Virus record (IMG/VR): IMGVR_UViG_2721755643_000006
Location: 1 to 49,995 of that record
DNA from: a virus
Lineage: Duplodnaviria > Heunggongvirae > Uroviricota > Caudoviricetes
DNA length: 49,995 bases
Strand: one strand, 5' to 3'
Part shown: positions 44,555 through 46,042 of the stretch, piece after piece
Position numbering within the stretch: the first letter of the stretch is position 1
How the letters are laid out: every line of letters starts with the position of its first letter
The notes under the pieces: model-generated
Database searches by the model: none
The model's input: only the letters and a program-made list of their open reading frames with translations
What the model was told of the DNA's origin: nothing
Program-made: the position numbers and the translations under genes

Positions 44555-44616
44555 ATGTTGATTACCTTTTGGCGGGTATCCGTTTTTTGTTTTCCCTTGT
44601 GATACCCGCCCTTTTT
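44555..44616 (+). ncRNA. dicF: DicF-like small RNA with intrinsic terminator
   Basis: TTTGGCGGGTATC...GATACCCGCCCTTTTTAAAGTGAATTTTGTGATG resembles E. coli dicF and its 3' flank as recalled; hairpin 44571-44610 followed by CTTTTT; upstream of dicB; 5' boundary uncertain. Confidence 0.5.
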
Positions 44617-45097
44617 AAAGTGAATTTTGTGATGCGGTGAATGCGGCTCAGCGCACGCGGAACAGTTAAAAAGCGATTAGTTCCCACGTATCGGGTGGTT
44701 ATGGGTATCCCTGTATCCGGCGTTAATTGTTAACTGGTTAACGTCACCTGGAGGCACCAGGCACCGCATCAACAAAGTTCACTTCGGTGATGAAAGGAAA
44801 GAGAAAATGTTGAATGTAGCTATTGAAAACCAGAACGGGTGGAATTATAGTGCACCTGCACCTCATAAAACGGGTGCCGGGATTGGCCTCCTGTTAATCA
44901 CATTGGTGCCTGAACACGCGCCAAAAGCGTGTTTTTTGTTGCCTGCATTTCATCATTCAATGGCAGCTCAGGCGGGAGCTTCTCACGAAGCGCCGGGTTC
45001 CGATGTGACCGGTAAGGCCAATCCCGTCTGGGCTACCACCAATCGGATTGGCCTCTGCGGTGGTGGCAGTACTGCTTTCACATCGGAGGATGCCGTT

Positions 45098-45655
45098 ATG
45101 GCTACTATCACTACCCTTTCTCACCCTTGTGTAACCATCGAAAATGGTCGCGCTGTCACCACATCTGTCGCCATTGCGGAATTCTTCCGCAAAATGCATA
45201 AAGACGTTCTGAAAAAAATAGACAACCTAGAATGCTCTGAGAAATTTAGCGGGCGCAATTTTGCGCCCGCCGAATATCTTGATGAGCAAGGCAAAAAACG
45301 CCCAATGTACCAGATCACCAAAAACGGCTTCGTTTTCCTGGTGATGGGCTTCACAGGCAAAAAAGCCGCTGCATTCAAGGAAGCCTACATTGCTGAGTTC
45401 GACCGCATGGAGGCCGAACTGCGCCAGAATAACACCCCACCTGCTGACAAGATGATTCCGGGTGATGGTCGCACTCTGGTTGTTCACTTCGACAAATTCG
45501 GCAATGTCGAATTCACCGAAACCGTTCCTGATGGCGCACTGGTCTGTACCCTGGAGACTTTCCGGTTTTATCTGGAAAAACAGGGATGGACTCTTGTTAA
45601 CCGGGGCGCAATTAAAAATATGACTGTGGAACAATTACTCAAAATTCATTGTTGA
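45098..45655 (+). CDS. Rha-family phage regulatory/antirepressor protein
   Basis: Rha-like N-terminus (VTTSVAIAEFFRKMHKDVLKKIDNL) and the C-terminal domain shared with 31716-32276; GGAGGA 7 nt upstream; the longer ORF-track N-terminus is probably not translated. Confidence 0.72.
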   Translation: MATITTLSHPCVTIENGRAVTTSVAIAEFFRKMHKDVLKKIDNLECSEKFSGRNFAPAEYLDEQGKKRPMYQITKNGFVFLVMGFTGKKAAAFKEAYIAEFDRMEAELRQNNTPPADKMIPGDGRTLVVHFDKFGNVEFTETVPDGALVCTLETFRFYLEKQGWTLVNRGAIKNMTVEQLLKIHC

Positions 45656-45665
45656 GGACGCAATA

Positions 45666-45854
45666 ATGGAGACGTTATTACCAAACGTTAATACGTCTGA
45701 AGGTTGTTTTGAAATTGGTGTCACTATCAGTAACCCTGTATTTACTGAAGATGCCATTAACAAGAGAAAACACGAACGGGAGCTATTAAATAAAATATGC
45801 ATTGTTTCAATGCTGGCTCGTTTACGTCTGATGCCAAAAGGATGTGCACAATGA
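45666..45854 (+). CDS. dicB: Cell division inhibitor DicB
   Basis: METLLPNVNTSEGCFEIGVTISNPVFTEDAINKRKHERELLNKICIVSMLARLRLMPKGCAQ nearly identical to E. coli DicB. Confidence 0.9.
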   Translation: METLLPNVNTSEGCFEIGVTISNPVFTEDAINKRKHERELLNKICIVSMLARLRLMPKGCAQ

Positions 45855-46042
45855 ATACAGTATTTGCACTCGTTCTGACGGTTTTTCTTGTTTCCGGTGA
45901 ACCGGTTGACATGGTTACTGGCGTATACAGCTCAATGAAAGAATGTAGGACTGCCGCAGCGAAACAGAAAATTCCCGGTGACTGTTATCCGGTCGATAAA
46001 GTTATTCACCAGGATAATATCGAAATCCCGGCAGGTCTTTAA
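45851..46042 (+). CDS. ydfD: YdfD-like small membrane lysis protein
   Basis: MNTVFALVLTVFLVSGEPVD......CYPVDKVIHQDNIEIPAGL matches Qin YdfD; ATGA overlap with dicB. Confidence 0.8.
   Translation: MNTVFALVLTVFLVSGEPVDMVTGVYSSMKECRTAAAKQKIPGDCYPVDKVIHQDNIEIPAGL

What the first reader, a model, noticed from the sequence alone, without database searches (positions are those of the whole stretch)
44555..46042. DicF-like sRNA, Rha-family gene, DicB and YdfD: cell-division and lysis module with an inserted antirepressor-like gene
A DicF-like sequence with its terminator hairpin (44571-44616) lies ~480 bp upstream of a Rha-family gene, followed by DicB and YdfD with overlapping stop/start. In Qin, dicF sits immediately upstream of dicB; here a Rha-type gene is inserted between them. 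The DicF-like 5' region differs from the E. coli sequence I recall, so target specificity may differ.
Basis: partly seen in the sequence, partly recalled or inferred. Interest (0 to 1): 0.4.

Follow-up and report, generated by a model that had tools for sequence, protein, structure and literature searches.

The report
Non-DicF terminator plus C4-controlled Rha–DicB module
This is an ordinary stretch of an E. coli lambda-like prophage: the supposed DicF RNA is a different, uncharacterised variant sitting in the DicF position, and the real regulatory RNAs are an IsrK/C4 antisense switch that controls the Rha gene placed in front of the cell-division inhibitor DicB and the lysis protein YdfD.

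Summary
Rfam's DicF model finds nothing at 44555-44616 even at E<=10, but scores K-12 DicF at 76.7 bits.

The element does sit in the dicF slot. Its flanks are near-identical to Qin, yet it is one of at least five alleles that share only a GGCGG...CCGCC terminator stem and U-run. It lacks the DicF residues that pair with ftsZ, manX and xylR.

The "~480 bp gap" is not empty. It holds a promoter, an IsrK RNA (63.7 bits) and a C4 antisense RNA (71.3 bits). The C4 loops are complementary to two site pairs, a1/b1 inside IsrK and a2/b2 over the Rha ribosome-binding site. These pairings co-vary across 60 related modules.

This is the phage P1 immI / Gifsy-1 isrK type of switch. It arrived as an 868-bp insertion in the dicB leader, and at least 251 complete E. 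coli genomes carry the arrangement. It is a new member of known kinds, of low to moderate interest. The function of the slot allele is still open.

The parts
44380..44549 (+). Conserved leader upstream of the dicF slot. It is homologous to the 5' part of the long (190-nt, RNase III-generated) DicF precursor of Qin.
   Evidence: Alignment with K-12 Qin (L001:2700-2866) is near-identical, except for a short patch around 44474-44500. The 190-nt and 53-nt processing of DicF is described in PMC10448788.
44550..44616 (+). dicF-slot allele 'B+H2'. It has a 21-nt single-stranded 5' arm (AACCCAUGUUGAUUACCUUUU), a hairpin at 44571-44610 with a 20-nt U-rich apical region (15-nt loop with a weak 2-bp extension in the predicted fold), and a U5 tail at 44612-44616. 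It is not DicF by covariance model.
   Evidence: Fold dG -18.5, z -5.1. No RF00039 hit at E<=10, against 76.7 bits for K-12 DicF. The same allele occurs in 17 viral contigs. In complete E. coli genomes, 94 records match at >=95% identity.
44623..44776 (+). Conserved dicF-dicB leader. It is STnc100-like but below Rfam's threshold, and it is truncated by the insertion.
   Evidence: RF02076 scores 34.6 bits (gathering 47) over model positions 22-154 of 206. In Qin the match is contiguous over positions 1-206 and runs into dicB.
44772..45639 (+). 868-bp segment absent from Qin. It holds a promoter, IsrK, C4 and rha minus its last codons. CAAA microhomology is present at both edges.
   Evidence: Junction alignment. 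Qin-type homology resumes at 45640.
44823..44851 (+). Sigma-70-type promoter of the IsrK/C4/rha unit (TTGAAA-17-TATAGT). It ends 6 nt before the IsrK 5' end.
   Evidence: 10 of 12 consensus positions match. It is conserved in 7 of 8 homologous loci, and L081 has a different promoter-like sequence (TTGACG-17-TATATT) in its place. This is a consensus match only; no transcription start site has been mapped.
44858..44937 (+). IsrK RNA. It carries the C4 target mimics a1 (44878-44889) and b1 (44898-44906), and ends in an intrinsic terminator (44912-44937).
   Evidence: RF01394 scores 63.7 bits (gathering 50). Terminator scan. Complementarity to C4.
44956..45043 (+). C4 antisense RNA. The b' loop is UUCCGAUGUGA (nt 43-53), the a' segment is AGGCCAAUCCCG (nt 60-71), and the 3' end reads ...CUACCACCAAU.
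   Evidence: RF01695 scores 71.3 bits (gathering 45) with the full-length model 1-87. Fold dG -40.3.
45045..45090 (+). C4 target sites a2 (45045-45054) and b2 (45078-45088). b2 overlaps the rha Shine-Dalgarno sequence GGAGG (45086-45090).
   Evidence: 10-bp and 11-bp complementarity to a' and b'. In 60 related modules, self complementarity is 9.75 nt for b'-b2 and 7.1 nt for a'-a2, against 5.1 and 3.9 for non-self pairs.
45098..45655 (+). rha, a Rha-family (antirepressor-like) regulator of 185 aa. The last codons (..IHC*) lie in sequence shared with the Qin dicB leader.
   Evidence: PF09669, E 1e-30. PHROG matches to transcriptional regulator, Rha-like and anti-repressor families. Variable sites by codon position are 53/39/102 in this CDS, against 48/54/53 in the upstream 44807-45097 frame.
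45666..45854 (+). dicB, a cell-division inhibitor of 62 aa, with its own GAGGA Shine-Dalgarno sequence.
   Evidence: PF05358, E 3.8e-40. 60 of 62 residues identical to K-12 DicB.
45851..46042 (+). ydfD (DUF1482; annotated 'lysis protein' in K-12), 63 aa. Its start overlaps the dicB stop.
   Evidence: PF07358, E 1.8e-22. 48 of 63 residues identical to K-12 YdfD.

Best explanation
The region is part of the early-left (dicBF-type) operon of an E. coli lambdoid prophage integrated next to potC. It has two separate RNA features.

**1. The dicF-slot element (44550-44616)**
This is an allele of the dicF locus, not DicF. It keeps the part shared by all alleles: a GC-rich GGCGG...CCGCC stem plus a U-run. 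That part defines an RNA 3' end, or a partial terminator, inside the operon. The two DicF pairing regions are replaced: the 5' arm used for xylR, and the loop and 3' part used for ftsZ, pykA and manX. I read it as an intrinsic terminator / 3'-end hairpin that would not repress the known DicF targets (inferred). A trans-acting role of its own is untested.

**2. The 868-bp insertion in the dicB leader**
This brings a self-contained antisense switch of the P1 immI / Gifsy-1 isrK type. The proposed sequence of events is:
- A promoter at 44823-44851 starts IsrK.
- Most transcripts stop at the IsrK terminator. Read-through transcripts contain C4, which in P1 is cut out as a stable RNA.
- C4 pairs through a' and b' with a2/b2 and covers the rha Shine-Dalgarno sequence, keeping Rha untranslated.
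- By analogy with P1, untranslated rha would also reduce transcription of the downstream genes, here dicB and ydfD, through Rho-dependent polarity.
- IsrK carries near-copies of the targets (a1/b1). It can therefore compete for C4 and switch rha on, as shown for IsrK and anrP in Gifsy-1.

**Shown versus inferred**
The RNA family matches, the pairings and their co-variation, and the overlap with the ribosome-binding site are shown here. Processing, polarity on dicB/ydfD and the antirepressor activity of Rha are inferred.
For: **Slot allele**
- No DicF hit, with positive controls in the same pipeline: K-12 76.7 bits, allele A+H4 43.5, allele B+H3 34.1, window-type allele none.
- The flanks are near-identical to Qin.
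- Five or more alleles occur between identical flanks. All have a stable hairpin and U-run.
- In the pairing test, K-12 DicF recovers manX (z -6.8), pykA (-4.1) and xylR (-2.4). The window allele gives +1.4 for manX, +1.6 for xylR and +0.1 for ftsZ.
- Nothing in the window is complementary to the allele beyond chance.

**Switch**
- IsrK 63.7 bits and C4 71.3 bits, both above gathering.
- A promoter and a terminator are predicted.
- Pairings are a'-a1 12 bp, a'-a2 10 bp, b'-b2 11 bp (overlapping GGAGG) and b'-b1 9 bp.
- 60 distinct modules from viral contigs carry 28 different b' loops and 17 different a' segments. Self pairing is 9.75 / 8.7 / 7.1 / 7.1 nt, against 5.1 / 4.5 / 3.9 / 4.7 nt for non-self.
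- The IsrK/orf45/anrP mechanism and the STnc1160 RNA downstream of IsrK are described in PMC4825925.

**Gene calls and prevalence**
- Gene calls.
- Prevalence and independence from the slot allele.
Against: - No expression data exist for this prophage. Promoter and terminator calls are consensus matches.
- The DicF positive control for ftsZ was weak in my duplex test (z -0.9). The negative result for ftsZ therefore has limited power.
- The window allele gave one nominally good duplex with pykA (z -3.1, 0 of 40 shuffles). It uses nucleotides buried in the terminator stem.
- The frame upstream of rha stays open for 100-139 codons in all homologues. Some translation through C4, as with orf45 in Gifsy-1, cannot be excluded.
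- Polarity on dicB/ydfD is by analogy only. dicB has its own Shine-Dalgarno sequence, and the operon's upstream promoter also feeds it.
Confidence: 0.72

Rival explanations
1. The slot element is a genuine trans-acting, Hfq-dependent sRNA with its own seed and targets different from DicF. On this view the dicF slot is a swappable sRNA cassette.
For: - The divergence is sharply bounded between near-identical flanks. Recombinant 5'-arm/hairpin combinations (A+H4, B+H3, B+H2, A+H5) resemble module exchange.
- The allele is 100% conserved in dozens of genomes of unrelated serotypes.
- The U-rich loop, single-stranded 5' arm and terminator with U-tail are typical sRNA features.
Against: - The few variants of this allele break stem pairs or change the loop length without compensation.
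- The flanks are just as conserved as the allele, so identity across genomes says nothing about selection.
- No target was found among known DicF targets or within the prophage.
- No genome-wide prediction or expression data are available.
Confidence: 0.22
2. It is a divergent but functional DicF orthologue that still blocks ftsZ translation.
For: It occupies the same locus and shares the terminator base and the fragment UGGCGG(G)UAUC.GUUUU with DicF. The operon still encodes DicB.
Against: - The covariance model gives no hit at E<=10.
- The ftsZ-pairing loop (AGUUUUACUCCG) is replaced.
- The duplex with the ftsZ start region is no better than shuffles (z +0.14).
Confidence: 0.04
3. The Rha gene starts at 44807, as in the RefSeq (PGAP) model, and encodes a 282-aa 'Ash'-Rha fusion protein. 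The IsrK and C4 matches would then lie inside coding sequence.
For: - PGAP annotates a 282-aa protein.
- Pfam Phage_ASH matches residues 14-105 (E 2e-12), and several PHROG families include this N-terminal part.
- The frame is open for 100-139 codons in all homologues.
Against: - Variable sites in 44807-45097 show no third-position excess (48/54/53), unlike the rha CDS (53/39/102).
- Indels of 1 and 4 nt shift the frame locally between homologues.
- The stretch matches two RNA models above gathering score, and the variation follows RNA-RNA pairing.
- A GGAGG Shine-Dalgarno sequence sits 8 nt before ATG 45098.
- In Gifsy-1 the orf45 nucleotide sequence is conserved but its amino-acid sequence is not (PMC12197685).
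Confidence: 0.08
4. The IsrK-C4-rha segment is ancestral, and Qin-type prophages lost it by deletion between short repeats. Under this reading it was not inserted here.
For: CAAA microhomology lies at both edges. A diverged leader-like repeat at the left edge would allow deletion. Both arrangements are widespread.
Against: - The STnc100-like leader is contiguous in Qin and in the Rfam model, but is split at model position 154 here.
- Rha homologues outside the dicB context end in ...IK*. The dicB-linked ones read on into leader sequence (...IHC*), as expected after insertion.
Confidence: 0.25

Closest known systems
DicF sRNA of the Qin prophage (Rfam RF00039), in the ydfABC-dicF-dicB-ydfDE operon
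   Same: - Identical genomic slot, with near-identical upstream precursor and downstream leader.
- A terminator stem base GGCGG...CCGCC followed by a U-run.
- DicB (97% identical) and YdfD (76% identical) lie downstream.
   Different: - The 5' arm and the hairpin loop, which are the experimentally defined pairing regions, are replaced.
- The model gives no hit, against 76.7 bits for K-12.
- No complementarity to ftsZ, manX or xylR beyond shuffles.
- dicB lies 1049 nt downstream here, against 174 nt in Qin.
Phage P1/P7 immI region: a1 b1 - c4 - a2 b2 - icd - ant (C4 antisense RNA, RF01695). The description of P1 rests on my own knowledge of Citron & Schuster 1990 and Biere et al. 1992.
   Same: - Full-length C4 match.
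- Two loops or segments complementary to an upstream and a downstream pair of sites, with the downstream b site over the ribosome-binding site of the regulated gene.
- The regulated gene is antirepressor-like.
- A cell-division inhibitor sits in the same unit (icd in P1, dicB here).
   Different: - The host element is a lambdoid prophage early-left operon, not the P1 plasmid prophage.
- The regulated protein is Rha-type rather than P1 Ant.
- There is no icd homologue. DicB is unrelated and lies downstream of the regulator rather than upstream.
- The upstream site pair is packaged as a terminated IsrK RNA.
Gifsy-1 isrK-orf45-anrP locus of Salmonella (IsrK RF01394; PMC4825925)
   Same: - The order is promoter, IsrK with its own terminator, a read-through transcript containing a stable RNA complementary to IsrK (STnc1160 in Salmonella, scored as C4 here), then an antirepressor-like gene.
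- An ORF through the RNA region is conserved as nucleotides but not as protein.
   Different: - This copy lies in the dicB leader, not next to the Q antiterminator. The window's second copy at 32323-32504 (-) does have the Gifsy-1-like position.
- The orf45-like frame is fused in frame to rha rather than being a separate coupled ORF.
- The downstream genes are dicB and ydfD, not isrJ.

Membership tests
DicF sRNA (RF00039) | Covariance-model score at or above the gathering score (48 bits) | tested here: not met
   No hit in the whole window at gathering. No hit at E<=10 in 44300-45150. A window-type allele in L060 gives none at E<=0.01. The K-12 control scores 76.7 bits.
DicF sRNA (RF00039) | Loop and 3' region complementary to the ftsZ ribosome-binding site (and to pykA and manX), and 5' arm complementary to xylR | tested here: not met
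   Windowed duplex energies against shuffles for the window allele are ftsZ z +0.14, manX +1.36 and xylR +1.56. K-12 DicF gives manX -6.8, pykA -4.1, xylR -2.4 and ftsZ -0.9, so the ftsZ control is weak. The pairing regions are taken from PMC5069750.
DicF sRNA (RF00039) | Position between ydfC and dicB, with the conserved precursor leader | tested here: met
   Alignment with Qin. The gene order ydfA, ydfC ... dicB, ydfD is seen in the 100%-identical RefSeq record.
DicF sRNA (RF00039) | Rho-independent terminator hairpin that forms the 3' end | tested here: met
   Hairpin 44571-44610 plus U5, dG -18.5, z -5.1.
DicF sRNA (RF00039) | Release of a short RNA by RNase E and RNase III, and Hfq binding | not testable with these tools
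   Only the upstream precursor sequence is conserved. No expression or binding data are available.
C4 antisense RNA / P1 immI-type switch (RF01695) | Covariance-model score at or above the gathering score (45 bits), full length | tested here: met
   71.3 bits, model positions 1-87 of 87, at 44956-45043.
C4 antisense RNA / P1 immI-type switch (RF01695) | a' and b' complementary to an upstream (a1 b1) and a downstream (a2 b2) site pair, with b2 at the ribosome-binding site of the regulated gene | tested here: met
   12-, 9-, 10- and 11-bp pairings. b2 (45078-45088) overlaps GGAGG (45086-45090), which lies 8 nt before the ATG at 45098.
C4 antisense RNA / P1 immI-type switch (RF01695) | Pairings maintained by co-variation among relatives | tested here: met
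   Across 60 distinct modules with 28 b' and 17 a' variants, self complementarity far exceeds non-self for all four pairings.
C4 antisense RNA / P1 immI-type switch (RF01695) | Processing of C4 from a precursor (RNase P in P1) and Rho-dependent polarity on downstream genes | not testable with these tools
   Only a tRNA-like ...ACCACCA 3' end is visible in the sequence.
IsrK (RF01394) | Covariance-model score at or above the gathering score (50 bits), with its own promoter and terminator, followed by an antirepressor-like gene | tested here: met
   63.7 bits. Promoter 44823-44851 and terminator 44912-44937. Rha gene downstream.
Rha family (PF09669), DicB (PF05358), DUF1482/YdfD (PF07358) | Pfam score above the curated cut-off | tested here: met
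   106.6 bits (cut-off 29.9), 135.8 bits (cut-off 27) and 79.4 bits (cut-off 25).
Rha family (PF09669), as an antirepressor | Binding and inactivation of a prophage repressor | not testable with these tools
   Only family-level annotation is available, from PHROG anti-repressor and transcriptional-regulator families.

The most novel reading that the evidence does not exclude
The dicF position of E. coli lambdoid prophages may be a cassette site where alternative small RNAs have been exchanged between invariant flanks. At least five alleles exist, built from two 5' arms and five hairpins. On this reading the window allele, found in about 2-3% of complete E. coli genomes, is an undescribed Hfq-type sRNA with host targets different from DicF. 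It would sit upstream of a C4 switch that itself exists in dozens of pairing specificities.
Probability: 0.2. Interest if true: 0.55.

Novelty: new member of a known kind. Interest (0 to 1): 0.3.

Why it matters
- **Annotation.** A DicF label here would be wrong. Strains carrying only this allele should not be assumed to have DicF-mediated control of ftsZ, manX, xylR or pchA.
- **Gene model.** The RefSeq 282-aa 'Rha' model, and the Pfam 'Ash' match on its N-terminus, most likely translate two structured RNAs.
- **Biology.** In this arrangement the toxic DicB/YdfD pair sits behind an antisense-RNA-gated antirepressor-like gene. This adds a second, RNA-controlled entry point to a module so far studied only under DicA control in K-12.
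- **Resources for follow-up.** The allelic series at the dicF slot and the many co-varying C4 specificities can be used to test sRNA target switching and RNA-based immunity specificity. Both are extensions of known principles.

Tried and rejected
- **Unrestricted RNAduplex.** I ran it for each allele against 110-130-nt target regions. It produced long, loop-ridden duplexes with poor discrimination, so I replaced it with a windowed version. A first attempt with a dinucleotide shuffler timed out.
- **Targets inside the prophage.** The longest Watson-Crick match to the slot RNA was 11 nt, and shuffles typically give 10-12. Nothing was found.
- **STnc100 on the right side of the insertion.** I scanned 45560-46100 for the missing 3' part of the model. 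Only noise came back.
- **One-genome-per-species scan.** It returned only E. coli and E. albertii (3 loci), so it gave no cross-genus view of the slot.
- **Literature.** Searches for the allele's sequence found only unrelated primers. Faubladier & Bouché 1994, on dicF-related prophage sequences, is not held. I therefore cannot say whether this allele was among the homologues they sequenced.
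Full report
**Context.** The window is an E. coli lambdoid prophage. Positions 44400-46100 are 100% identical to two RefSeq chromosomes (RMDEC364 and VL46). In those records the gene order is repressor region, relBE, ydfA, ydfC, two hypothetical genes, 'Rha family phage regulatory protein', dicB, a DUF1482 gene, a RecE-like exonuclease, xis and int, followed by potC. This is therefore the early-left, dicBF-type operon running towards the attachment site.

**Checking the observation.**
- The hairpin is at 44571-44580 / 44601-44610 with U5 at 44612-44616. Folding gives dG -18.5 kcal/mol, z = -5.1, and no shuffle out of 200 folds as well.
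- Pfam confirms Rha (45098-45655, E 1e-30), DicB (45666-45854, E 3.8e-40) and DUF1482/YdfD (45851-46042, E 1.8e-22).
- DicB is 60/62 identical to K-12 DicB, and YdfD is 48/63 identical to K-12 YdfD.
- The dicB stop and the ydfD start overlap. The U-run to rha ATG distance is 482 nt.

- At gathering thresholds the window has no DicF hit.
- At E<=10 in an 851-nt search around the site there is still none.
- The same pipeline scores K-12 DicF at 76.7 bits, E 2e-17.
- The element nevertheless lies in the dicF slot. Aligned with Qin, the upstream sequence up to ...CCCGCTGCAAC and the downstream sequence from GCCCTTTTTAAAGTG... match almost base for base. The roughly 60 nt in between are different.

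**An allelic series at the slot.** Scanning viral contigs with the two flanks recovered a series of alleles.
- The alleles are K-12 DicF (by far the commonest), the window type (17 loci) and at least three others.
- They are built from two alternative 5' arms and five alternative hairpins.
- All of them fold into a stable GGCGG...CCGCC hairpin followed by a U-run.
- The DicF model scores them in a graded way: 76.7, 43.5 and 34.1 bits, and nothing for the window type.
- In 5,426 complete E. coli genomes, the DicF allele occurs in 3,953. The window allele matches 94 records at >=95% identity and covers >=80% of the query in 156 genomes.

**Pairing potential.** Published work assigns the DicF 3' part and loop to ftsZ and pykA, and the 5' end to xylR (PMC5069750).
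- In a windowed duplex test against shuffles, K-12 DicF recovered manX (z -6.8), pykA (-4.1) and xylR (-2.4). It recovered ftsZ only weakly (-0.9).
- The window allele gave +1.4 for manX, +1.6 for xylR and +0.1 for ftsZ.
- It gave one nominal hit on pykA (-3.1), which uses nucleotides of its own terminator stem.
- Nothing in the prophage is complementary to it beyond chance.
- The few variants of this allele break stem pairs or change loop length without compensation, so there is no co-variation evidence for anything beyond a hairpin.
- I conclude that it is a dicF-locus allele that keeps the terminator / 3'-end function and not the known DicF seeds. Whether it has targets of its own is open.

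**What the '480-bp gap' contains.**
- Rfam finds IsrK at 44858-44937 (63.7 bits, gathering 50) and a full-length C4 antisense RNA at 44956-45043 (71.3 bits, gathering 45).
- A sigma-70-like promoter (TTGAAA-17-TATAGT, 44823-44851) ends 6 nt before IsrK. IsrK ends in an intrinsic terminator at 44912-44937.
- The C4 loop b' (UUCCGAUGUGA) and segment a' (AGGCCAAUCCCG) are complementary to a1/b1 inside IsrK (44878-44889 and 44898-44906).
- They are also complementary to a2/b2 downstream (45045-54 and 45078-88). b2 overlaps the GGAGG that precedes the rha ATG by 8 nt.
- This is the layout of the P1/P7 immI region (own knowledge of Citron & Schuster 1990) and of the Gifsy-1 isrK-orf45-anrP locus.
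- In Gifsy-1, short IsrK acts in trans on the read-through transcript to open translation of an antirepressor-like gene. A stable RNA complementary to IsrK (STnc1160) lies downstream of IsrK (PMC4825925).

**Testing the pairings by co-variation.** I collected 64 distinct isrK-C4 modules from viral contigs, of which 60 were usable.
- They carry 28 different b' loops, 17 a' segments and 36 combinations.
- Complementarity within a module is 9.75 nt (b'-b2), 8.7 nt (b'-b1), 7.1 nt (a'-a2) and 7.1 nt (a'-a1).
- Between modules with different loops the values are 5.1, 4.5, 3.9 and 4.7 nt.
- This three-way co-variation is strong evidence that the pairings are functional.

**Where rha starts.** RefSeq's model starts at 44807 (282 aa), and its N-terminus matches Pfam Phage_ASH.
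- Across eight homologous loci, variable sites in 44807-45097 are spread evenly over codon positions (48/54/53). The rha CDS shows the expected third-position excess (53/39/102).
- Indels of 1 and 4 nt shift the frame locally between homologues.
- The frame does stay open in all homologues, so some translation through C4, as for orf45 in Gifsy-1, is possible.
- Even so, the conserved entity is RNA.

**Inserted or deleted?**
- Relative to Qin, the extra segment is 44772-45639 (868 nt), with CAAA at both edges.
- The conserved dicF-dicB leader matches Rfam STnc100 below threshold. In Qin the match is contiguous over model positions 1-206. In the window it stops at position 154, exactly at the left junction.
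- Rha homologues that are not followed by dicB end in ...LLxIK*. The dicB-linked ones read two codons further into leader sequence shared with Qin (...LLKIHC*).
- Both observations favour insertion into a Qin-like leader. Deletion in Qin is not excluded.
- The presence of the module is independent of the slot allele. Canonical DicF occurs with IsrK-Rha-DicB (L108, L120), and the window allele occurs directly before dicB (L060, L098, L122).
- At least 251 complete genomes carry the full 1.7-kb arrangement.

**Mechanism, and what is inferred.**
- Shown: the family memberships of both RNAs and all three proteins, the pairings and their co-variation, the overlap with the ribosome-binding site, and a predicted own promoter and terminator.
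- Inferred from P1 and Gifsy-1: C4 is processed from read-through transcripts and blocks rha translation; IsrK competes for C4 and turns rha on; lack of rha translation lowers dicB and ydfD transcription by polarity; Rha acts as an antirepressor.
- dicB has its own Shine-Dalgarno sequence and is also fed by the operon's upstream promoter, so the C4 unit is an additional input rather than the only one.

**Verdict.** The finding describes real features, but its headline (a DicF-like sRNA) does not hold. The parts belong to known families, and the exact sequence is already in RefSeq. The dicF-slot allelic series and the breadth of C4 specificities are modestly interesting leads.

Noticed in passing
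window 32323-32504 (-): A second IsrK (70.8 bits) plus C4 (60.3 bits) pair lies just downstream of the Q antiterminator gene and upstream of an ORF6N-domain gene, which is the Gifsy-1-like position. Its b' loop (UCCUUUUUC) differs from the first module's, while its a' is similar (AGACCAA), so the two switches probably differ in specificity. The ORF6N protein's C-terminal ~80 aa are 43% identical to Rha residues 101-183.
   Followed up: partly
loci L173-L286 (viral contigs), aligned: isrK-C4 modules exist in at least 36 (a', b') combinations (28 b' loops, 17 a' segments). The changes in a1/b1 and a2/b2 are matched, giving a large repertoire of RNA 'immunity' specificities in enterobacterial prophages. 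The window's combination was seen only in the window, L002 and L286.
   Followed up: partly
window 44807-45097 (+): The N-terminal 97 codons of the RefSeq 282-aa Rha model overlap IsrK and C4, match Pfam Phage_ASH (PF10554) and several PHROG families, yet show no coding-type substitution pattern. The 'Ash' protein family may largely be a translation of C4-type RNAs.
   Followed up: partly
window 44550-44616 and loci L008, L049, L088, L105, L139: The dicF slot holds at least five alleles between identical flanks. They are mosaics of two 5' arms and five hairpins. Two loci (L139, L150) have a deletion that removes the 5' half of the hairpin.
   Followed up: partly
window 44623-44776 (+); L001:2933-3142: The conserved dicF-dicB leader resembles Rfam STnc100 (31-46 bits against gathering 47 in all loci tested). 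It includes a palindrome GTTAATTGTTAACTGGTTAAC and a CCTGG-AGGCA-CCAGG hairpin. Its function is unknown.
   Followed up: no
window 34956-35130 (-): A sok antitoxin RNA (116.9 bits) of a hok/sok type I toxin-antitoxin locus. hokD is annotated at this position in the identical RefSeq record.
   Followed up: no
window 29738-30044 (-): Four tandem tRNA genes (annotated Ile, Arg, Thr and Gly in the identical RefSeq record) lie in the late region upstream of the lysis genes.
   Followed up: no
window 42353-42832 (+); L002 16011-18626: A relB/relE toxin-antitoxin pair lies between the immunity region and ydfA. The otherwise identical RefSeq prophage carries an IS66-family element between relE and ydfA that is absent from the window.
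   Followed up: no
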